From Ostreococcus lucimarinus (Eukaryota): a stretch of DNA of 64,000 bases. Position 1 is the first letter of the stretch. Each line of letters begins with the position of its first letter. The DNA is taken from the NCBI GenBank assembly GCA_000092065.1, contig CP000586.1; one strand, given 5' to 3'. The notes beneath the pieces were generated by a model. It had not been told where the DNA came from. It ran no database searches and was given only the letters and a program-made list of their open reading frames with translations. Both the position numbers and the translations under genes were made by a program. Below, piece after piece: positions 5,876 to 14,114 of the stretch.

Positions 5876-8617
5876 CTATGCGCCGGCGAGAAGCTCTTCG
5901 ACGCGCTTTCTTTTCAACTTTTCCGTGATTTCATCCAACAGAAACCCATCCATGAGTGCGTTGACGTCGGAAATCGTCCCCTCGACGCGATGGTCCTTGA
6001 CTCGACCTTGCGCGAAGTTGTACGTTCGAATCCGTTCGCTTCGATCACCCGTACCGATCAACGAGCTTCGCAGCTCGCTTCGCTCTTTCGCCATCTTCTC
6101 GCGCTCTAAGTCGTACAATCGCGCCTTGAGCACGCTGAACGCCTTGGCTTTGTTCTTGTGCTGGCTTCGCTCGTCTTGGATCACGACTTGGATCCCCGTC
6201 GGCGCGTGCGTGAGGCGAACCGCGGAGTTGGTGGTATTGACGTGCTGACCACCAGCGCCGCTGGCGCGCATGGTGTCGATGCGAACATCCTCCTCTTTGA
6301 TGTCCATCTCCACCTCTTCCGCATGCGGAAGCACCGCGATGGACGCTGTGCTCGTGTGCACTCTGCCTTGCGTCTCCGTCTCGGGCACGCGCTGCACGCG
6401 ATGGACGCCGGATTCAAACTTCAACCTCCCAAATACGCCTTTGCCTAGAATTTCAGCGCTCGCTTCTCGAACGCCCTTACCATCGGTCTCACTCACGTTC
6501 AACGTATCGAACCTCCAACCGCTCTTTCTCGCGTGTAAGGCATACATGCGGAACAGCTCGGCGGCGAAGAGCGCGGCTTCGTCGCCGCCCGCGCCGGCGC
6601 GAACCTCTAAAATCGCGCCCCGATCGTCTGCGTCGTCGTGAGGCAAGAAAAGCAGCTGCAGCGCTAGCTCTTGATCGGGTAAATCGATGTCAACGGCGCG
6701 CAGCTCCTCGCGCGCGAGCTCGGCAAGCTCTTTAGAATCACCCCCGCTCGACGCGTCTCGCACCAATTCCTCGAGAGACGCCTTTTCGGCGCGAAGCTTT
6801 TTGACGACTTCATACTGCTCCGCGATGGGTTCAATTCGGCTGAGTTCCTTGTTTGCTTCGACAACGCGATCGATATCGACGCCTTGGCGCGAGATGAGCG
6901 CGATCAATTCCTCTCGTCGCCGCAGCGCGGCTTCGCCTCTTTCCTCCAAGGCGTCCGTCGAAGACGTCGAAGACGAGTACGACCTCGTTCCGGCCATCGC
7001 GCGCTCGAGCGTCGATCCGACGCGCACGAGCCGAGCTTCTCGGAATTTTGGCGCGATCATTTGCATACCAATGGGTAAGCCGCTCGCCCTCGAGCGCCCA
7101 GCGGGCATGGACATCGCGGGTAAACCCGCGAGCGATGCGGGCACCGTCATGACGTCGGCGGCGTACGTTTGCGCCGGACTCAGTGCCTCGACGTCGGAAA
7201 GTTTTGGTGCCGTCGACACGCTGGATGGTGTGAGCAACACATCTACGCCACCGCCTTCGCCGCCGAACACGTTTGTAAAGTCGTCCGACACCAATCTTCG
7301 AACCTTTTGCGCCTTTTCAAAGTATTCCGCCGCGCGCGCGCTGCTCAGGGCAAACGCGCCGACTGTGACGCGGCGACGAACCTCGTCGCCGAAACCCAAG
7401 CTTCGCGCCTTCGCGATGGCGCTTTGAAACTCTTCAGCAAGATATTCTTCTCGCGAAAGGTCACGCGTGAGGTCACCGTAGCGCATACCGTCGTAACGTG
7501 CGAGATTACTCGACGCCTCGGCCGGGGCGAGGACGTAGTAACACGGCAACGCCGCCTCGGTGTGCGGCATGTTGACGCGCACAATTTCCGCCCCGAGCGC
7601 CTCCATCGCGCGCACCATTTCGTTCCACGCGTCATACACTTCTTGAGTCAATTCGCTCACCGCGTATTCCTCTGGAACGCCCACGCGCAAGCCCTTCAAA
7701 GATGCTGCTTTTGGCGTCGTCTCGTCGACGAATTCGAGCGCCGCCGCGTCTAAATCCTCGCACCGCGCCACCGTCGTCGCGTCCAGGGCGTCCTCGCCCT
7801 GAATCGCCGCGAGCACGACCCCAGCATCACTCACCGTCCGCGCTAAAACCCCCACCGTGTCCAACGAGCTACAATACGACACGAGACCGAACCTACTCAC
7901 CCTGCCGTACGTCGGCTTCAATCCGACCGCGCCGCAATACGCCGCGGGCAATCGCACGCTCCCCCCCGTATCGCTTCCGAGCGCGTAAAACGCCGAACCG
8001 TTCACAACCGCCGCCGCGGACCCCCCGCTCGACCCCCCGCTCGACCTTTCGCCGTCCGACGACGTCGGATTCAGCGTCGTCTGCCCCGACGTCCGCGTGT
8101 GACTCCCCATGCCGAACTCGTCCATGTTCGTCTTCCCAATCAACACCCCCCCCAGCGCGCGCAACCGCGCGATCGCCGTCGCCTCGATCGGCGATTCGTA
8201 CCCCTCCAAAATCCTCGATCCCGCGCTCGTCGTCCCGACGTTCGCGCACAGATTATCCTTCGCCGCGAACGGGACGCCGTCGAGCGCGCTCGCTCGCCGC
8301 CTCGCCTCCCCATCCGCCTCGCCTTCCGTCTCGCCCCGCTCTCGCCGCGCGTCCGACGCGCGCGCGTCCGCCAGCGCGCGTCTCGCGTGCGCGTCTCGCG
8401 ACGCGGCGCTCCCGACGAACGCGCGCGACGTGAGCGCGTCCGCGTCGACGCGACGCGCGCAGTGCGAGAGCAGGTCGACCGCGGTCAGCGCGCGCGCGTC
8501 GAGCGCGCGCGCGGCTTCGGCGACGGTGCGCGGCCACGACGCCGCGGACGTGGACGCGGTCGCGTTCGAGCGCGCGCGCGCGACGCCGCGCGCGGCGCGT
8601 CGCGCGTGGACGCGCAT
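5876..8617 (-). CDS. gatA-prfA fusion: Glutamyl-tRNA(Gln) amidotransferase subunit A (GatA, amidase signature) fused in frame to a class-I peptide chain release factor of RF1 type. A Ser/Thr-rich linker of about 15 aa joins the two. The protein is probably organelle-targeted.
   Basis: GatA is supported by FAAKDN, GGSSGGSAAAV, GSDTGGSVRLPAAYCG and a complete C-terminus (GLPIGMQMIAPKF...LVRVGSTLERA). RF1 is supported by a PET tripeptide (RF1-type PxT, not SPF), GGQ (SGAGGQHVNTT) and RTYNF motifs. No stop codon occurs between the two. The start is taken at Met 217 of the listed ORF (ATG 8617-8615), giving a ~45-aa Arg/Ala/Ser presequence. An internal Met at 6997-6995 would give a stand-alone RF1 with no targeting peptide. 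Confidence 0.6.
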   Translation of the reverse strand: MRVHARRAARGVARARSNATASTSAASWPRTVAEAARALDARALTAVDLLSHCARRVDADALTSRAFVGSAASRDAHARRALADARASDARRERGETEGEADGEARRRASALDGVPFAAKDNLCANVGTTSAGSRILEGYESPIEATAIARLRALGGVLIGKTNMDEFGMGSHTRTSGQTTLNPTSSDGERSSGGSSGGSAAAVVNGSAFYALGSDTGGSVRLPAAYCGAVGLKPTYGRVSRFGLVSYCSSLDTVGVLARTVSDAGVVLAAIQGEDALDATTVARCEDLDAAALEFVDETTPKAASLKGLRVGVPEEYAVSELTQEVYDAWNEMVRAMEALGAEIVRVNMPHTEAALPCYYVLAPAEASSNLARYDGMRYGDLTRDLSREEYLAEEFQSAIAKARSLGFGDEVRRRVTVGAFALSSARAAEYFEKAQKVRRLVSDDFTNVFGGEGGGVDVLLTPSSVSTAPKLSDVEALSPAQTYAADVMTVPASLAGLPAMSMPAGRSRASGLPIGMQMIAPKFREARLVRVGSTLERAMAGTRSYSSSTSSTDALEERGEAALRRREELIALISRQGVDIDRVVEANKELSRIEPIAEQYEVVKKLRAEKASLEELVRDASSGGDSKELAELAREELRAVDIDLPDQELALQLLFLPHDDADDRGAILEVRAGAGGDEAALFAAELFRMYALHARKSGWRFDTLNVSETDGKGVREASAEILGKGVFGRLKFESGVHRVQRVPETETQGRVHTSTASIAVLPHAEEVEMDIKEEDVRIDTMRASGAGGQHVNTTNSAVRLTHAPTGIQVVIQDERSQHKNKAKAFSVLKARLYDLEREKMAKERSELRSSLIGTGDRSERIRTYNFAQGRVKDHRVEGTISDVNALMDGFLLDEITEKLKRKRVEELLAGA

Positions 8618-8651: not shown

Positions 8652-9365
8652 ATGACGCTCGGCGTCGCGCGCGCCGCGGCGCCGTCGCGCGCGCGCGCCG
8701 CGGTCGCGCGCGGTCGTCGCGCGGTCGTCGCCGCGCGTCGTCGCTCGGCCGTCGCGCGCGCGATCGTCGCGCGTCGCGCGCGCGAGGTCGTCGAAGTCGA
8801 CGCCGAAGTCGACGGCGGGCGAACGAACGCCGCGCGAACGACCGTGGCGCTCGCGCTGACGCTCGCGCTGACGCTCGCGACGCCGCACGCGGCGCGCGCG
8901 AGGGAGTTCTTCCCGCAGTCGCCGCCCGACGACCCGATCGAGCCGTTCAGCGTGTTCGGGACGGTGGAGAAGGCGTTCAGCGTCGCGGTGCTCGACGAGA
9001 GTGGGTCGAAAATCGTGGCGAGAAAACGCGGCATGAGCGTGAAGTCGTGCGTGAACGTGGTGCCGGCGTCGAGACAGGGGCCGAGAGGACCGCCCGAGGC
9101 GCTGAGACCGTCGGCGTGCGCGGAGGCGGAGGCGCTGGGGGAGATTCGGGAGCAGCGGGACATGTTGAAGGCGTGCGCGCCGGCGTGCAAGGCGTCGTGC
9201 TCGAGGGCGATCGCGGAGTACGACGAGGGACAGAGGAAGACGACGGGATTTGGGTTAGATGCCAAGGCAAAGGAGCGAGTGTTGAAAGCGTGCGTCGTGA
9301 CGTGCGGGAAGGATTGCGAAAAGGCGGGAAAGTCGTACGATTACATCATACCGTTTCGATTTTGA
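8652..9365 (+). CDS. Hypothetical Cys-rich protein. The N-terminus resembles a bipartite transit peptide, suggesting thylakoid-lumen targeting.
   Basis: ATG at 8652. The presequence is Arg/Ala-rich and is followed by a hydrophobic ALALTLALTLATPHAARA|REFF segment. The mature part is Lys/Glu-rich with CAPACKASC and CVVTCGKDC motifs. The overlapping antisense frame (the GatA ORF N-terminal extension) is Ser/Thr/Asn-rich and non-protein-like. Confidence 0.4.
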   Translation: MTLGVARAAAPSRARAAVARGRRAVVAARRRSAVARAIVARRAREVVEVDAEVDGGRTNAARTTVALALTLALTLATPHAARAREFFPQSPPDDPIEPFSVFGTVEKAFSVAVLDESGSKIVARKRGMSVKSCVNVVPASRQGPRGPPEALRPSACAEAEALGEIREQRDMLKACAPACKASCSRAIAEYDEGQRKTTGFGLDAKAKERVLKACVVTCGKDCEKAGKSYDYIIPFRF

Positions 9366-9401: not shown

Positions 9402-9421
9402 ATCTATTAATATGCGTTGAT

Positions 9422-12345
9422 CTAAGGTTCGCGAGACGATTCGCTGGACGCTGAAAACTCCGCGAGCGCGGCAGCGTACGCCTCTTTCGCCGTCTTGGCA
9501 TCGCTCTCGTACTTGGCTTTGCGTTCTGGATCGAGCGAGGCCCACCGCTCGCCGAGCGCCTTGGCGACTTCGCCGACTTTAAAGGTTGGATTTTCCGCCT
9601 TGACTGACGCGCGTTCGTCCGCCGAGAACGCGAAAAAGGCCGTGAGCGGTTTTTTCATTCCTGGAACTTCCACCTTGGGCTTCGGCGCCTTCTTTGCCTT
9701 TGGATATTTGGCTTCCTTCTTTGCCTCTGGCTCCTTCTTCGGCTTTGGTTCCTTCGCCTTCTTCGGCTCCTTTTTCGCCTTGGTCTTTTTCGAAGCGTAT
9801 CGACCGCGCGTGCGCGGTGGGCGCTCGGCTTTTTTGCGCAACAATTCGACAGCTTCGTCGATATCGACGTTTTCGACCGCACCGACGCGCTTCAATACGG
9901 TTTTCCCGATGGATGCTCTGAGAACTTCGCCGGCGACTTCGGACGCGACGTACCAACCAAATGGGCCAATGTTGAGCGAAACGGGCGCCTGCGTCACCGG
10001 ATGCACACCAAGCACTTTGGGGTATTCAAACATCCCGATGGCTTCCGCGAGAGTGATCTTGTTGACGTCCTTGCCGATGTTTGCCACTCCGACGCGACGA
10101 GGTGCAGGCGGTTTCTTCGGTTTCTTTGCCTTCTTCCCATCCTCTGCCGGCGTCGCCGCCGCGAGCTCTTGAACGCCGAGTTGTAAATATGGGCCATAAG
10201 GACCAAGTCGGAGAGAAATTTCTTTTCCGGTCGCTGGATCAACGCCAAGCACCTTGGGATACATCACTGCGTCGGGATCTTCGACGGTGGCGACGAAATC
10301 TGGATCATCCGTGTCGCTCACGATGGCGCCTCGAATCGGATGCAACGGGTGCGTGAAGCCGCATTCAGGGTAGCGACTGCACCCAATGAATCCACCAGCT
10401 TTTGATGGCTTTAAACCAAGTCTGCCAATTTTACAGCTCGGGCATCTCCGTGCTTCGCTCACGACGTCGTCGGAATCGCTTAATTCGGCGACTTGATCCG
10501 GGTTGATGTGCACGTGGCCGTCATACGTCGCCTCGCCGAAGAGATGCTGCCCGAGCTTCTCATCGAGAGCGTCGATGACTTCGCTCACGCGCAGCTCCGA
10601 AAGCGACGATATTTTATCCCTAAACGGCGTCCACCACTCCTCGAGTAACGGTTTCCATTGTACTTGTTCGCTCGTGATGTCGTCAAGCTTGTGTTCCAAA
10701 TCCGCCGTGAAGCCGTAATCGACGTACGTCTCAAAGTAATTCGTGAGAAACGCAGAGACTAGACGACCGCGAGTCGTGGGAACGAGTGCGGCACCTTGCT
10801 TTGCGACGTACTCACGCTGCGCGAGCACCTTTAAAATCGGTGCGTACGTGCTCGGTCGCCCGATGCCTCGTTCTTCGAGCGCCTTGACGATGGAACCATC
10901 CGTGTAGCGAGGCGGCGGCGACGTTTTGTGCTCTGTCGCCTCGCACCCGAGACTCTCACCGTCAGTTTTCACAGACAAACCTTCGCCTTCACCAAGAATA
11001 GGTAACCACGCGTCGTCTGAAGGTGGCGCAGCTTCGGGTCTGGACGTTCGATACGCCGCAAGGAATCCCGGAAACTTGAGCCTGTGTCCGTTCGCCTTGA
11101 GCTTTAAGTCGTTCTCTGCGGAGGCAATTTCAGCCGCTATGCGATCGGTAAGCGCAGGTGACATTTGTGACGCCATAGTGCGCGCCCAAATCAACGCATA
11201 AAGTCTCGCTTCATCGCTGCCTGGTCCTATTTGCCGCGCAACTTGCGCGGGAAGCCGTCCAGCCTTGGTAGGTCGAATCGCTTCGTGCGCCTCTTGCGCA
11301 TTCTTTTGCTTCTTCTTAAAGTATCTGGGCGATTCAGGCACGTACTCATCACCAAAAAGCTCACCAGCGGTCGTACGCAAGCTTTCAATCGCATGTGGGG
11401 CGACGTACGTGCCATCTGTGCGCATGTACGTAATCAAACCTTCGCCCGTGCCCGCGCCCTCGTACAGTCGTTGCGCCGCCGACATCGTCCTCGACGCACC
11501 GAAACCGAGCTGCTTGTTCGCTTCCTGCTGCATCGTCGACGTCGTGAACGGTGGTCCACTCGTACGCTTGGCTTCGCTGTGCTTCACCTCCACCACCCGC
11601 AGCGTATCGCATTCTCGCACGCGCTTGGCGTACGCCTCGGCTTCGTCGTTCGAAGCGATGGTAAACTTTCCAAGCTTAGCGCCATCGACGTGCGTCAAAG
11701 CGGCGTCAAACGTAGAGCCGTCTTTTGAACTTAAACTCGCCTTCACCGTCCAATACGGCTCGCTCACGAACGCCTCCACCTCTTCCTCTCTTTCGCACAC
11801 TAATCGCAGCGCCACGCTCTGCACGCGACCCGCGGACAGGCTCACGCTCGACGGCAACTTACGCCACAGTAGCCCAGAGAGCGTGAATCCGAATAGATAA
11901 TCCAGCGCGCGTCGCGCCATGTACGCATCAACCATCGGAACGTTAATGTCCCGCGGAGAACCCACCGCGTCGAGCACCGCTGTTTTCGTAATCTCCCCAA
12001 ACGTCACGCGCTTGACGTCCAAGTCGTCGCGCAACAATTTCTTCTCCCGAAGCACCTCGAGCAAGTGCCACGAGATAGCCTCACCCTCTCGGTCTGGATC
12101 CGTCGCGAGCAGCAGCACATCCGTCTTCTTCAACGCCTCCGTGATGTCTCGCATCGCCGCCTTTTGCCTCGACGTCGACGTCCACGTCATCGCGAACGAT
12201 TCCTCCGGCCGCACGCTTCCCTGTTTATTCACCAGATCACGCACGTGCCCGTAGCTCGCCAGCACTTTCGCGTTCGCACCCAAATACTTCTCGATCGTCT
12301 TCGCCTTGGCCGGAGACTCGACGATCATGAGCGTCCGTTTCCCGT

Positions 12346-12385
<40 letters not shown>

Positions 12386-12604
12386 GCCGCTCGCGACCGC
12401 GCGCGCCGTCGCCGCCGTCTTCGTCGTCTCGCCCCATCCACCCTCGCGTCCTCCCCACGCGATCCCGCGCGTCGCGCGCGCGCCGACGCTCGCGACGAGC
12501 CGTCGCACGCCGCCCGCGCGCGCGCGCGCCGTCCACATCGCCGCCGACGACTGCGAATTCCCAACCGACTCCGCGCGCGACGCCGCGGCGCCACTCGCGC
12601 GCAT
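9422..12604 (-). CDS. TOP1 (topA-type): Bacterial-type DNA topoisomerase I (type IA, TopA-like). It has C-terminal Zn ribbons and Topo_C repeats, followed by a Lys-rich tail and an HMG box. It is probably organellar.
   Basis: The Toprim region TLMIVESPAKAKTIEKYLG...SYGHVRDL is present, with the active-site region downstream. A C4 ribbon reads CPSCKIGRLGLKPS...CSRYPECGF. The YPKVLGV...LGPYGPY repeat occurs twice. The tail KKTKAKKEPKKAKEPKPKKEPEAKKEAKYPKAKKAPKPK is followed by an HMG box (KKPLTAFFAFSADERASVKAENP...WASLDPERKAKYE). The start is uncertain: Met candidates lie at 12604 or 12538, and the ORF runs on to 12820. A T12 tract precedes the Toprim region. Confidence 0.7.
12348..12383. repeat. 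(GTC)12 microsatellite. It codes T12 in the topoisomerase N-terminal region and V13 in the antisense ORF.
   Basis: Perfect trinucleotide run read directly. Confidence 0.9.
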
Positions 12605-12764
12605 CAACCGCGCCCGCGGACGCGCGCCGCGCGCGGCGACCTCCCCGCGCGTCGCCGCCGCGCGCGGCGCCGCTCGTCCGCGCGGTGCGCGCGCGCGAAT
12701 GCGGCGAACGTCGCGACGCGCGTCGATTCGCGACTCGCCCGAACATCGCGACGCGCGCGCCGCC

Positions 12765-14114
12765 ATGTTCGACCGCGCGAGCGCGCGCGCGCGGCGCGCG
12801 AAGAAGTACGGCCAGCCCATCTACGCCGGCGCGTGGCTGGACGATCGCACCGCGCTCCTCGCCGGGGGCGGCGGGAAGAAGTCGAGCGGGATTCCGAATC
12901 GAATCTTGATCGCGTCGTGCGAGCGTGGCCCGCACGGAACGACGCTGGCGGACGCCGAGGCGTGGACGCACACGGACGAAGACGCGCCGCAGCGGCTGGC
13001 GGTGCACCCGGGGCGCGAACACGTGGTGTGCGCGTTCGGGGGGACGCTGGGGGTGTTTCGAGCGCGGCGAGGCGCGAACGACGGCGCGGACGAGGGCGCG
13101 TCGTCGTCGGGAACGAACGGGGAGGCGCGGTGGACGATCGAATCGTGCGCGAGCGCGTTGGGACTGCCGAATCGCGTGCACGTGACGCCGGATGAGCGGG
13201 AGATTAAGTGCGCGGCGTTCGACGCGGAGGGCGCGCGGTTGGCGCTGGGATTGGAGAGCGGGGAGGTAAAGATTCTAGCGTGGCCGTCGTTGGAGGTGGA
13301 GAAAGAGCTCGGGGCGCACGAGAAAGGGGCGGTGACCGATATCGCCTGGGCGCCCGACGGCGATGGGCTGTTGACGACGTCGGCGGAGAACGCGACGGCG
13401 AGTAACATCGGTCGCGGCGCCGCGGTGTGGAGCGTCGAGCGCGGCGAACGCGTGCTGACGTTGTTCGACGAGTCCATCGTGAAGAAGAGCGGGGTGCGGA
13501 ACGTGGTGTTTCGCGGCGCGGCGTACGGCCGAGGCACGAACGCGTCGACGAGCGTGGCGTGGACTGGGGTGAATCTAGACGGCGAAGGTTGGGTGGTGAA
13601 GTGGGACGTCGCCACGTGGAAAGTCATCAGCAAGGCGCGAGTGTTCAAAAGCGAGCCCATCTCCGGGTTCGCGGTGAACGCGCAGGGTACGCTCATCGCC
13701 GTCGGAAGCTCCGAAGGCGAAGTAAAAGTCGTGGACGCGCAAAAGTTTACGCTCATTAAACCGGTGAAGAAGGCGCACATGATTTTCGTCACCACCATGG
13801 CGTGGAATCCCAAAGGAAACGTCGTCCTCTCGGGCTCCGCCGACGCCAGCGCTTTGGCGACGAAGATCGAAAAGCAGTCATGGACCTTGCGTTTGGTGCT
13901 CTGGTTCACCGTGTTCGTGATGTTGATCGTCGGCTGGATAACGTTGCTGTCGACAATCTTCCCCGACCCGCTCGCGCGCGCGCTCGAAGACGGCGATTAC
14001 GCCCGCGCCGCGCAAGCCGTCGCCGACTATTTCAGCGAGACCAAGATCCCGGCCGCGACGTTAGAAACGATCGAGGACGCCGTCGCCGGCGTCTCCGCCC
14101 GCGACGAGCTTTAG
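12765..14114 (+). CDS. SEC12: Sec12/PREB-like guanine-nucleotide exchange factor for Sar1. It has a WD40 propeller and a C-terminal TM anchor.
   Basis: ATG at 12765 is in frame. The K-loop-like LLAGGGGKKSSGIPNRILIA is present. WD repeats are followed by a TM segment (WTLRLVLWFTVFVMLIVGWITLL) and a short lumenal tail. The listed ORF start at 12306 is antisense to the topoisomerase. Confidence 0.6.
   Translation: MFDRASARARRAKKYGQPIYAGAWLDDRTALLAGGGGKKSSGIPNRILIASCERGPHGTTLADAEAWTHTDEDAPQRLAVHPGREHVVCAFGGTLGVFRARRGANDGADEGASSSGTNGEARWTIESCASALGLPNRVHVTPDEREIKCAAFDAEGARLALGLESGEVKILAWPSLEVEKELGAHEKGAVTDIAWAPDGDGLLTTSAENATASNIGRGAAVWSVERGERVLTLFDESIVKKSGVRNVVFRGAAYGRGTNASTSVAWTGVNLDGEGWVVKWDVATWKVISKARVFKSEPISGFAVNAQGTLIAVGSSEGEVKVVDAQKFTLIKPVKKAHMIFVTTMAWNPKGNVVLSGSADASALATKIEKQSWTLRLVLWFTVFVMLIVGWITLLSTIFPDPLARALEDGDYARAAQAVADYFSETKIPAATLETIEDAVAGVSARDEL

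What the first reader, a model, noticed from the sequence alone, without database searches (positions are those of the whole stretch)
9425..9800. Bacterial-type topoisomerase IA carrying a C-terminal Lys-rich tail and an HMG box
The topoisomerase IA modules end in a Lys/Pro-rich linker (KKTKAKKEPKKAKEPKPKKEPEAKKEAKYPKAKKAPKPK). After it comes a canonical eukaryotic HMG box (KKPLTAFFAFSADERASVKAENPTFKVGEVAKALGERWASLDPERKAKYESDAKTAKEAYAAAL). Bacterial topoisomerase I usually ends in a basic DNA-binding tail. Here that tail appears replaced or augmented by an HMG-type architectural domain. This suggests a nucleoid-associated topoisomerase. I do not recall this combination from plant organellar TOP1.
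Basis: partly seen in the sequence, partly recalled or inferred. Interest (0 to 1): 0.5.

Follow-up and report, generated by a model that had tools for sequence, protein, structure and literature searches.

The report
Organellar-type topoisomerase I with HMG box
A picoalga (Ostreococcus) gene encodes a bacterial-type DNA-relaxing enzyme with a eukaryotic chromatin-type DNA-bending domain (HMG box) fused to its end, and this fusion is real, conserved in several algal groups, under selection, and absent from the literature I could search.

Summary
One uninterrupted ORF (window 9422-12604/12820, minus strand) encodes a complete type IA topoisomerase. It has Toprim, a Topoisom_bac core with the catalytic Tyr, one C4 zinc ribbon and two Toprim_C_rpt. 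A ~47-residue disordered Lys/Pro-rich linker and an HMGB-type HMG box follow (Pfam E 7.9e-19, 68 bits against a cut-off of 25).

The window is Ostreococcus lucimarinus or a near relative. The fusion is conserved and syntenic in at least three Ostreococcus clades, and the O. tauri RefSeq model includes it. A related GC-rich marine clade, probably Micromonas, carries two boxes, as does Cymbomonas. A second, divergent TopA backbone carries three or four.

The HMG box is under purifying selection (dN/dS 0.07-0.15, similar to the other DNA-binding domains). The nearest bacterial relatives are alphaproteobacterial TopA with three C-terminal repeats and a Lys/Ala-rich tail. The alga therefore kept the tail, lost one repeat and gained the HMG box.

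The most likely function is a plastid and/or mitochondrial nucleoid topoisomerase in which the tethered HMG box anchors or targets the enzyme. Localisation and biochemistry are untested.

The architecture sits unremarked in databases, and I found no paper describing it. I rate it a new variant of a known kind, of moderate interest.

The parts
9422..12604 (-). Probable CDS of the TopA-HMG gene (1060 aa plus stop), starting at the second in-frame ATG (M73 of the ORF). The mechanical ORF extends to 12820.
   Evidence: ORF list. Independent gene calls on near-identical and orthologous contigs start at the equivalent Met (P0001, P0002, P0003). The divergent WD40 gene lies about 160 bp upstream in L001.
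12338..12604 (-). N-terminal extension of 89 aa that is absent from bacterial TopA; a putative organelle-targeting presequence. It contains a 12-Thr run.
   Evidence: Composition is 12 K+R, 3 D+E, 20 Ala and 26 Ser/Thr. Identity among Ostreococcus clades is 9-28% and dN/dS is 0.9-1.5. pLDDT is about 27. Bacterial homologues start at the Toprim domain. No targeting predictor was available.
11993..12334 (-). Toprim domain with the conserved acidic residues (IVESPAKA; ATDPDREGE).
   Evidence: Pfam PF01751, E 3e-19. These columns are invariant in the alignment with bacteria.
10643..11947 (-). Type IA topoisomerase core (Topoisom_bac), including the active-site tyrosine motif GLITYMRTDG.
   Evidence: Pfam PF01131, E 2e-113. 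TIGR01051 above its cut-off. Invariant Y393 and RTD columns. Best solved relative is M. smegmatis TopA 6PCM, E 8e-124.
10337..10450 (-). Single C4 zinc ribbon (CPSC...CSRYPEC).
   Evidence: Pfam PF01396, E 8e-11. The four Cys are invariant.
10085..10261 (-). First Toprim_C_rpt (approximate limits).
   Evidence: Pfam reports two stretches of PF13368. The position comes from the alignment with bacterial repeats (LGxDPxTGxxxxxxxGPYGPY).
9812..10003 (-). Second and last Toprim_C_rpt.
   Evidence: Pfam best stretch at residues 940-1003. pLDDT is about 90 in the AF2 model, and Foldseek matches the M. smegmatis TopA C-terminal domain 6PCM.
9659..9799 (-). Lys/Pro-rich disordered linker (47 aa; 19 K+R, 8 Pro), positionally equivalent to the basic tail of alphaproteobacterial TopA.
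   Evidence: Sequence. Composition and 36-47% identity among Ostreococcus clades. pLDDT below 50 in both models. Aligns with the bacterial K/A/P tails.
9455..9655 (-). HMG box of the HMGB (non-sequence-specific) type.
   Evidence: Pfam PF00505, E 7.9e-19. Best PDB sequence matches are HMGB1 box B and yeast mitochondrial Abf2p. The model has three helices at pLDDT about 90, with rmsd 1.2-2.0 A to HMG-D, HMGB1-B and Abf2p. dN/dS is 0.07-0.15.
9416..9737 (-). Segment (second half of the linker, the HMG box, the stop codon and 6 nt beyond) that also exists as a diverged copy at a second locus elsewhere in this species or population.
   Evidence: blastn gives 87-92% identity to L004 5314-5648 and L005 5200-5534. 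Alignment and dS of 0.10-0.18.

Best explanation
This is the nuclear gene for the alphaproteobacterium-derived, bacterial-type topoisomerase I (TOP1/TopA) of Ostreococcus. It is the orthologue of the enzyme that in green plants serves plastids and mitochondria.

The catalytic part is a complete type IA enzyme, so it should relax negative supercoils by cleaving and passing a single strand. In the C-terminal DNA-binding region, the last of the three Toprim_C_rpt modules of the bacterial ancestor was lost. The basic tail was retained as a ~47-residue disordered Lys/Pro-rich tether. An HMGB-type HMG box was added at its end.

The proposed mechanism is as follows. After import into the organelle or organelles, the tethered HMG box, helped by the polycationic linker, binds duplex DNA in the minor groove without sequence specificity. 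It prefers bent, distorted or negatively supercoiled DNA. This keeps the enzyme on nucleoid DNA and raises its local concentration or processivity at under-wound regions. The remaining zinc ribbon and C-terminal repeats handle the single-stranded T-segment.

What is shown: the architecture, the integrity of the catalytic and HMG motifs, conservation, purifying selection and alphaproteobacterial affinity. What is inferred: organellar location, DNA anchoring and the effect on processivity.
For: **Architecture**
- A single ORF carries all domains.
- The catalytic motifs are invariant.

**HMG box**
- It is closest to the non-sequence-specific boxes HMGB1-B, Abf2p, NHP6A and HMG-D, by sequence and by fold.
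- The linker is disordered in both models.

**Conservation and expression**
- Region-wise identity among Ostreococcus clades is 80-90% for the core, 70-78% for Zn+C_rpt, 68-79% for the HMG box, 36-47% for the linker and 9-28% for the presequence.
- dN/dS is 0.07-0.15 for the HMG box and 0.05-0.11 for the enzyme domains.
- The locus is syntenic in three Ostreococcus clades.
- The O. tauri RefSeq model XP_003079855.2 includes the HMG box. An MMETSP transcript spans TopA plus two HMG boxes.
- The fusion recurs with 2-4 boxes in other algae, including Cymbomonas.

**Origin and location**
- The nearest bacteria are Rhodospirillales at 45-50% identity. This agrees with the published alphaproteobacterial origin of green-plant type IA TOP1, the plastid and mitochondrial predictions for O. 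lucimarinus 41359, and GFP data for AtTOP1 (PMC4166229).
- The N-terminal extension has a presequence-like composition.

**Precedents for function**
- Tandem HMG-box proteins organise mitochondrial and Chlamydomonas chloroplast nucleoids (PMC8157925).
Against: - No localisation evidence exists for this protein, and no targeting predictor could be run.
- HMG boxes are typically nuclear, and the Lys-rich linker resembles a nuclear localisation signal.
- No biochemical data exist for any TopA-HMG protein.
- In the nearest analogue, Chlamydia TopA-SWIB, deleting the appended domain still allowed complementation in E. coli (PMC12445093). The appended domain may therefore matter little for catalysis itself.
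- I could not retrieve the Chlamydomonas or land-plant TOP1 sequences. I cannot say whether the HMG box is ancestral to the green lineage or specific to prasinophyte-grade algae.
- dS is close to saturation, so the dN/dS values are approximate.
Confidence: 0.6

Rival explanations
1. Nuclear enzyme: the Lys-rich linker acts as a nuclear localisation signal, and the HMG box docks a bacterial-type TopA onto nuclear chromatin.
For: HMG boxes closest to HMGB1 and NHP6A are classic nuclear chromatin domains. The linker is strongly basic.
Against: - Every orthologue carries a fast-evolving, Arg/Ala/Ser/Thr-rich N-terminal extension with few acidic residues before the Toprim domain. Bacteria lack it.
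- The O. lucimarinus orthologue was predicted plastid and mitochondrial, and AtTOP1 was found in both organelles (PMC4166229).
- Bacterial TopA proteins also carry Lys-rich tails.
- HMG-box proteins do occur in organelles, for example Abf2p, TFAM and HBD1 (PMC8157925).
Confidence: 0.1
2. Architectural role first: the HMG box or boxes make the protein a TFAM/HBD1-like nucleoid-compacting factor. The topoisomerase is delivered stoichiometrically as part of the nucleoid scaffold, rather than the HMG box merely assisting catalysis.
For: - Relatives carry 2-4 tandem boxes, like TFAM, Abf2p and HBD1.
- The same HMG unit occurs in an Ostreococcus 3xHMG protein.
- HBD1 compacts chloroplast DNA with two boxes (PMC8157925).
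Against: - Ostreococcus has a single box, and one box cannot bridge or U-turn DNA the way the tandem proteins do.
- Abundance is unknown.
- A ~1000-aa enzyme is an expensive scaffold.
Confidence: 0.2
3. Passenger domain: the HMG unit is a promiscuously duplicating module in Ostreococcus that landed on the 3' end of topA and has little function there.
For: The same linker-plus-HMG unit is found at the C-terminus of a coiled-coil protein (a recent copy, dS 0.10-0.18) and as three repeats in P0226.
Against: - The TopA-HMG fusion is far older than these copies. It is shared by all Ostreococcus clades, the two-box clade and Cymbomonas.
- It is under purifying selection as strong as that on the other C-terminal domains.
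- The recent copy retains TopA's vestigial last codons and stop downstream of its own stop, so the direction of copying was TopA to the other gene.
Confidence: 0.07
4. Gene-model artefact: two adjacent genes (topA and a small HMG gene) only appear fused in the raw ORF.
For: None was found beyond the general possibility in an unannotated window.
Against: - There is no stop codon or frame change.
- The same continuous ORF occurs in three species.
- The O. tauri RefSeq model and an MMETSP transcript span both parts.
- Only 57 bp separate the stop from the convergent neighbouring ORF.
Confidence: 0.02

Closest known systems
Organellar bacterial-type topoisomerase I of green plants (Arabidopsis TOP1 At4g31210; O. 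lucimarinus 41359 in Moriyama & Sato 2014, PMC4166229)
   Same: It is a nuclear-encoded type IA TopA of alphaproteobacterial affinity with an N-terminal extension. This gene is very probably that O. lucimarinus entry or its orthologue, because the neighbouring gene product clusters with O. lucimarinus XP_001418458.1.
   Different: The literature treats it simply as TOP1 and mentions no HMG box. Whether the land-plant and Chlamydomonas enzymes carry one could not be tested here.
Chlamydia trachomatis TopA-SWIB fusion (NCBIfam NF004966; PMC12445093)
   Same: A bacterial-type TopA has a eukaryotic chromatin-associated domain appended to its C-terminus.
   Different: The appended domain is SWIB (usually viewed as a protein-interaction module), not the DNA-bending HMG box. 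The host is a bacterium, not a eukaryote. The window protein scores 505 bits against a cut-off of 868 for that family.
Actinobacterial TopA with C-terminal lysine repeats (Streptomyces, Mycobacterium; PMC5714199; PDB 6PCM, PMC7192597)
   Same: Both have Toprim_C_rpt modules followed by a polycationic tail that stabilises the enzyme-DNA complex. 6PCM is the closest solved structure.
   Different: The algal enzyme has a zinc ribbon, is of alphaproteobacterial type, and continues past the basic stretch into a folded HMG box.
Alphaproteobacterial TopA (Caenispirillum, Azospirillum, Rhodospirillum)
   Same: The core is 45-50% identical. The C-terminal layout is one zinc ribbon, then Toprim_C_rpt modules, then a Lys/Ala/Pro-rich tail.
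   Different: They have three repeats instead of two, no presequence and no HMG box.
Tandem HMG-box organelle nucleoid proteins (TFAM, Abf2p, Glom, Chlamydomonas HBD1; PMC8157925)
   Same: They use the same type of HMG box. Abf2p box 1 is one of the two best PDB matches. They have a presumed role on organelle DNA.
   Different: They are small proteins with two boxes and no enzyme. Here a single box (2-4 in relatives) is tethered to a topoisomerase.

Membership tests
Bacterial-type DNA topoisomerase I (type IA, TopA; TIGR01051) | Whole-protein score above the curated cut-off | tested here: met
   TIGR01051 scores 656.4 bits against a cut-off of 456.4.
Bacterial-type DNA topoisomerase I (type IA, TopA; TIGR01051) | Toprim domain with the catalytic Glu and the DxD acidic cluster | tested here: met
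   PF01751, E 3e-19. E96 and D169/D171 are invariant in the alignment with bacterial TopA.
Bacterial-type DNA topoisomerase I (type IA, TopA; TIGR01051) | Core domains with the active-site tyrosine (GxxTYxRTD) | tested here: met
   PF01131, E 2e-113. GLITYMRTDG is invariant.
Bacterial-type DNA topoisomerase I (type IA, TopA; TIGR01051) | C-terminal zinc ribbon and/or Toprim_C_rpt DNA-binding modules | tested here: met
   One PF01396 and two PF13368 stretches. The model matches the 6PCM C-terminal domain.
Bacterial-type DNA topoisomerase I (type IA, TopA; TIGR01051) | Relaxation of negatively supercoiled DNA | not testable with these tools
   This needs purified protein.
HMG-box domain (PF00505), HMGB-like non-sequence-specific class | HMM score above the gathering threshold | tested here: met
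   68.3 bits against 25.4, E 7.9e-19.
HMG-box domain (PF00505), HMGB-like non-sequence-specific class | L-shaped three-helix fold | tested here: met
   The AF2 models have three helices at pLDDT about 90. Foldseek gives rmsd 1.2-2.0 A and target TM-scores up to 0.85-0.90 to solved HMG boxes.
HMG-box domain (PF00505), HMGB-like non-sequence-specific class | Closer to HMGB/NHP6A/Abf2 boxes than to SOX/LEF/SRY boxes; Ser/Thr rather than Asn before the AFF motif | tested here: met
   Domain E-values are about 1e-10 for HMGB1-B and Abf2p, against whole-sequence E-values of 1e-5 to 1e-6 for SOX, SRY and LEF. The sequence reads KKPLTAFF. The significance of the Thr/Asn position rests on my own knowledge of the HMG literature.
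HMG-box domain (PF00505), HMGB-like non-sequence-specific class | Minor-groove binding and bending of DNA | not testable with these tools
   This needs EMSA or circularisation assays.
Green-lineage organellar TOP1 (At4g31210 orthologues) | Nuclear-encoded TopA of alphaproteobacterial affinity | tested here: met
   The best bacterial hits are Rhodospirillales at 45-50% identity. The gene lies among eukaryotic genes. This agrees with PMC4166229.
Green-lineage organellar TOP1 (At4g31210 orthologues) | N-terminal plastid and/or mitochondrial targeting peptide | tested here: inconclusive
   There is an 89-aa extension with presequence-like composition, disorder and fast evolution. No TargetP or PredAlgo was available. 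The published prediction for O. lucimarinus 41359 is plastid plus mitochondrion.
Green-lineage organellar TOP1 (At4g31210 orthologues) | Localisation in plastid and/or mitochondrial nucleoids | not testable with these tools
   This needs an experiment.
Chlamydial TopA/SWI-domain fusion (NF004966) | Score above the cut-off and a C-terminal SWIB domain | tested here: not met
   505.5 bits against a cut-off of 868, with the match confined to residues 161-737. There is no SWIB hit in Pfam. It is an analogue only.
TFAM/Abf2p/HBD1-type nucleoid proteins | Small basic protein made of two tandem HMG boxes | tested here: not met
   One box sits on a 1060-aa enzyme. Relatives have 2-4 boxes, but these are also fused to TopA.

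The most novel reading that the evidence does not exclude
HMG-box arrays may have been recruited more than once onto nuclear-encoded bacterial-type TopA. One backbone is the zinc-ribbon-bearing, alphaproteobacterial-type enzyme of green algae, with 1-3 boxes and in one case a box inserted between the C-terminal repeats. The other is a zinc-ribbon-less backbone only 26-35% identical to it. Its N-termini look like signal-peptide-led (bipartite) plastid-targeting sequences, and it carries 3-4 boxes.

If so, TopA-HMG would be a general, convergent way for algal organelles to couple supercoil relaxation to nucleoid architecture. In picoalgae the enzyme may double as a TFAM/HBD1-like packaging protein.
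Probability: 0.25. Interest if true: 0.7.

Novelty: new variant of a known kind. Interest (0 to 1): 0.5.

Why it matters
Little is known about how organelle genomes are kept at the right superhelical density and how that is coupled to nucleoid packaging. This is especially true in algae that lack the land-plant nucleoid proteins.

A topoisomerase that carries its own architectural DNA-bending domain gives a concrete, testable link between the two processes. It is a eukaryotic counterpart of the lysine-repeat TopA of Streptomyces and the SWIB-TopA of Chlamydia. O. tauri is genetically tractable, so the HMG box can be deleted in vivo.

The finding also shows eukaryotic chromatin domains being grafted onto endosymbiont-derived enzymes. 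The very recent copy of the linker-plus-HMG module onto another gene shows domain shuffling in progress.

Tried and rejected
1. Foldseek against AFDB50, intended to obtain named UniProt relatives and their architectures, could not be run because the library was not available.
2. A word-indexed search with the C-terminal profile A2 was swamped by low-complexity Lys/Ala words and returned only 36 hits. It did, however, reveal the coiled-coil-HMG paralogue.
3. A search with a masked zinc-ribbon-plus-repeat profile (A3) returned only short alphaproteobacterial fragments. No named plant or core-chlorophyte TOP1 appeared. The presence or absence of HMG boxes in Chlamydomonas Cre10.g442850 and Arabidopsis At4g31210 therefore remains untested.
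4. A scan of bacterial and archaeal genomes with P0410 gave a haphazard set of hits at 29-48% identity. It says nothing about the origin of the second backbone.
5. The supplement of the HBD1 paper, which lists multi-HMG proteins of green algae, is not held.
6. Five literature searches for the combination found no description of a TopA-HMG fusion. A 2022 survey of type IA C-terminal domains does not mention HMG.
7. I rejected three ideas:
   - a gene-fusion artefact;
   - a sequence-specific (SOX/LEF-type) box;
   - a chance match in a low-complexity region, because the box lies outside the Lys-rich stretch and scores 68 bits.
8. The full-length AF2 model is mediocre (mean pLDDT 63, shallow alignment). 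I used it only for the order and disorder pattern.
Full report
**What is in the sequence**

On the minus strand, ORF 9422..12820 is uninterrupted (1132 aa from the first ATG). Pfam finds the following domains:

| Domain | Residues | E-value |
|---|---|---|
| Toprim | 163-276 | 3e-19 |
| Topoisom_bac | 292-726 | 2e-113 |
| Zn_ribbon_Top1 | 791-828 | 8e-11 |
| Toprim_C_rpt, two stretches (best one given) | 940-1003 | 4e-15 |
| HMG_box | 1056-1122 | 7.9e-19 |

- The HMG_box scores 68.3 bits against a gathering score of 25.4.
- NCBIfam TIGR01051 (topA_bact) is passed at 656 bits against a cut-off of 456.
- The raw sequence shows the Lys/Pro-rich stretch and the HMG segment in the same frame, ending at TAG 9424-9422.
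- A six-frame scan finds no other TopA or HMG box of this type in the 64 kb.

**Gene model and organism**

The likely start is the second in-frame Met (nt 12604). Independent gene calls on a 99%-identical metagenomic contig and on orthologous contigs start there, and a divergent WD40 gene lies about 160 bp upstream.

- The 78%-identical homologue P0003 clusters with O. tauri XP_003079855.2 / A0A090M290.
- The product of the neighbouring gene in the window clusters at 90% identity or more with O. lucimarinus CCE9901 XP_001418458.1.
- The window is therefore O. lucimarinus or a very close relative.
- The O. tauri RefSeq model (1046 aa) includes the HMG box. An MMETSP transcript of a more distant relative spans TopA plus two HMG boxes.

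The fusion is therefore not an ORF-reading artefact.

**Anatomy compared with the bacterial ancestor**

The best bacterial matches are Rhodospirillales TopA at 45-50% identity. This agrees with the published conclusion that green-plant type IA topoisomerase derives from alphaproteobacteria (PMC4166229). The alignment shows four things:

- The catalytic Glu, the DxD cluster and the TYxRTD motif are invariant.
- The algal proteins have an N-terminal extension of about 90 aa that bacteria lack.
- The bacterial proteins end in a Lys/Ala/Pro-rich tail at the position of the algal linker.
- The HMG box lies beyond that tail.

Bacterial relatives have three Toprim_C_rpt (179-190 bits), while Ostreococcus has two (56-81 bits). 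In short, the basic tail was kept, one repeat was lost and an HMG box was gained.

**The HMG box**

- By sequence it is closest to HMGB1 box B and to box 1 of the yeast mitochondrial nucleoid protein Abf2p (domain E about 3e-10 each). NHP6A, HMG-D and TFAM follow. SOX, SRY and LEF boxes score much worse.
- The aromatic core (AFFAF, W, Y) is intact in those alignments.
- An AlphaFold model of the last repeat, linker and HMG box gives pLDDT of about 90 for the repeat and for three HMG helices. The 40-residue linker falls below 50.
- Foldseek matches the box to HMG-D, HMGB1-B, BAF57 and Abf2p at 0.9-2.0 A. It matches the repeat to the ssDNA-binding C-terminal domain of M. smegmatis TopA, 6PCM.
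- The full-length model is mediocre overall but shows the same pattern. The presequence has pLDDT of about 27, the linker is below 50, and the HMG box is at 88-91.

**Conservation and selection**

The locus is syntenic in three Ostreococcus clades. The order is WD40, TopA-HMG, a small convergent ORF, then an Amidase+PCRF+RF-1 gene.

| Region | Identity to other Ostreococcus clades | dN/dS against two clades |
|---|---|---|
| Core | 80-90% | 0.05-0.07 |
| Zn + C_rpt | 70-78% | 0.06-0.11 |
| HMG box | 68-79% | 0.07-0.15 |
| Linker | 36-47% | not computable (dS saturated) |
| Presequence | 9-28% | 0.9-1.5 |

dS is near saturation, so the ratios are approximate. Even so, the HMG box is constrained like the other folded DNA-binding modules.

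**Distribution beyond Ostreococcus**

- Homologues at 42-49% identity carry two C-terminal HMG boxes. They come from GC-rich (64-68%), gene-dense marine eukaryote contigs up to 2.3 Mb long. I infer that these are probably Micromonas.
- I ran an exhaustive profile search of 1.84 billion representatives and then a local hmmsearch. TopA core plus HMG boxes turned up in:
  - P0258, with two boxes;
  - P0272, with three boxes;
  - P0388, with two boxes, one of them inserted between the two C-terminal repeats;
  - P0271, which is Cymbomonas tetramitiformis KAK3242876.1 (Pyramimonadophyceae), with two boxes.
- P0286 and P0341/P0410 (the latter an MMETSP transcript) carry three to four boxes.
  - Their core is only 26-35% identical to the window protein, and they have no zinc ribbon.
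  - Their N-termini look like signal peptides ('...IFASAFSLLP', 'MWSNVFAWVLFACLSHG').
  - From my own knowledge, such N-termini are typical of proteins targeted to secondary plastids. This is an inference.
- Whether this second backbone is a separate fusion event could not be resolved.
- Whether core chlorophytes and land plants have the box could not be tested.

**Most likely function**

The catalytic part is intact, so the protein should relax negative supercoils as TopA does. Three lines of evidence point to plastid and/or mitochondrial nucleoids:

- the presequence-like extension;
- published plastid-plus-mitochondrion predictions for O. lucimarinus TOP1 (protein 41359), together with GFP data for AtTOP1 (PMC4166229);
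- the occurrence of the same class of HMG box in Abf2p, TFAM and Chlamydomonas HBD1 (PMC8157925).

By analogy with the lysine repeats of Streptomyces TopA, the basic linker plus HMG box most plausibly form a flexible duplex-DNA anchor. [quoted passage not shown] HMGB-type boxes also prefer bent or under-wound DNA (established knowledge of the family). Such an anchor would retain or target the enzyme on nucleoid DNA, while the zinc ribbon and repeats bind single strands as in 6PCM (PMC7192597). These functional steps are inferred, not shown.

The rivals are a nuclear role, a primarily architectural role, a passenger domain and an artefact. They are weighed in the rival-explanations section of this report.

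**Comparison with what is known, and novelty**

- The gene is a member of bacterial-type TopA and, very probably, of the green-lineage organellar TOP1 group.
- It is not a member of the chlamydial TopA-SWIB family (505 bits against a cut-off of 868, and no SWIB domain). That family is nevertheless the nearest conceptual analogue (PMC12445093).
- Five full-text searches found no paper describing a TopA-HMG fusion.
- A 2022 survey of type IA C-terminal domains does not mention HMG.
- The HBD1 paper notes two-HMG proteins in Micromonas and Ostreococcus but never mentions topoisomerase.
- The architecture is present but unremarked in public databases. The O. tauri entry is named only 'DNA topoisomerase, type IA, central region, subdomain 2'.

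I rate it a new variant of a known kind, of moderate interest.

**Side findings**

*Recent copy of the linker-HMG module.* The last 322 bp of the gene (nt 9416-9737) exist as a diverged copy at a second locus of the same species or population. This segment covers half of the linker, the HMG box and the stop.
- There it forms the C-terminus of a ~543-aa coiled-coil protein encoded between PRP1 and EMP70 genes.
- The copy is 87-92% identical in DNA, with dS of 0.10-0.18 and dN/dS of 0.4-0.6.
- A 13-bp insertion creates a new stop, and the vestigial TopA stop lies downstream of it.
- The direction of copying was therefore TopA to the other gene.

*Shared unit in a 3xHMG protein.* P0226, a 294-aa protein with three HMG boxes, shares the same 'KPKVEVPGMKKPL(S/T)AFF...AALAE' unit.

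*Neighbouring gene fusion.* The neighbouring gene fuses GatA-type amidase with release factor 1. The fusion is conserved in three Ostreococcus clades.

Noticed in passing
window 9416-9737 (-); copies at L004 5314-5648 and L005 5200-5534: The 3' 322 bp of the TopA gene are duplicated at a second locus, which is not in this window. The segment covers half of the linker, the HMG box, the stop and 6 nt beyond. There it forms the C-terminus of a ~505-630 aa coiled-coil protein (P0245, 212 cluster members) encoded between PRP1 and EMP70 genes. DNA identity is 87-92%, dS is 0.10-0.18 and dN/dS is 0.4-0.6. A 13-bp insertion gives the copy a new stop. One haplotype (L005) is 100% identical to TopA over about 240 bp, which suggests gene conversion or a chimeric assembly.
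   Followed up: yes
L006 207-1091 (protein P0226): A 294-aa Ostreococcus-like protein consists of three HMG boxes. Each box starts 'KPKVEVPGMKKPL(S/T)AFF' and ends 'KYAAALAE', the same unit as the TopA tail (62% identity). It is a possible organelle nucleoid protein and a relative of the TopA HMG module.
   Followed up: partly
window 5876-8617 (-): One 913-aa gene fuses a GatA-type amidase (Glu/Asp-tRNA amidotransferase subunit A) with peptide chain release factor 1 (PCRF plus RF-1 with the GGQ motif). The same fusion is called in two other Ostreococcus clades (858-890 aa). The NCBI model for O. lucimarinus (XP_001418458.1) is only a partial 539-aa protein.
   Followed up: partly
window 8652-9365 (+): A small convergent ORF of about 237 aa has a Cys-rich C-terminus and no Pfam hit. 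It ends 57 bp from the TopA stop. An ORF of 183-206 aa with no Pfam hit occupies the same position in two other Ostreococcus clades.
   Followed up: no
window 12347-12382 (-): The putative presequence contains a run of 12 Thr codons. The 99%-identical metagenomic homologue P0001 has 11, so the run is length-polymorphic.
   Followed up: no
proteins P0011, P0012, P0014, P0021 (loci L002, L003); P0388: In the two-HMG-box clade, the position of the bacterial third Toprim_C_rpt is occupied by a long acidic or coiled insertion. The two boxes of one protein can be about 80% identical to each other by my reading of the sequences, which suggests recent duplication or concerted evolution. In P0388 one HMG box sits between the two C-terminal repeats rather than at the end.
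   Followed up: partly
proteins P0286 and P0410: These are TopA proteins without a zinc ribbon. They are 26-35% identical to the window enzyme, carry 3-4 HMG boxes and have signal-peptide-like N-termini ('IFASAF' motif). They may be plastid-targeted enzymes of secondary-plastid algae. The bacterial origin of this backbone is unresolved.
   Followed up: partly
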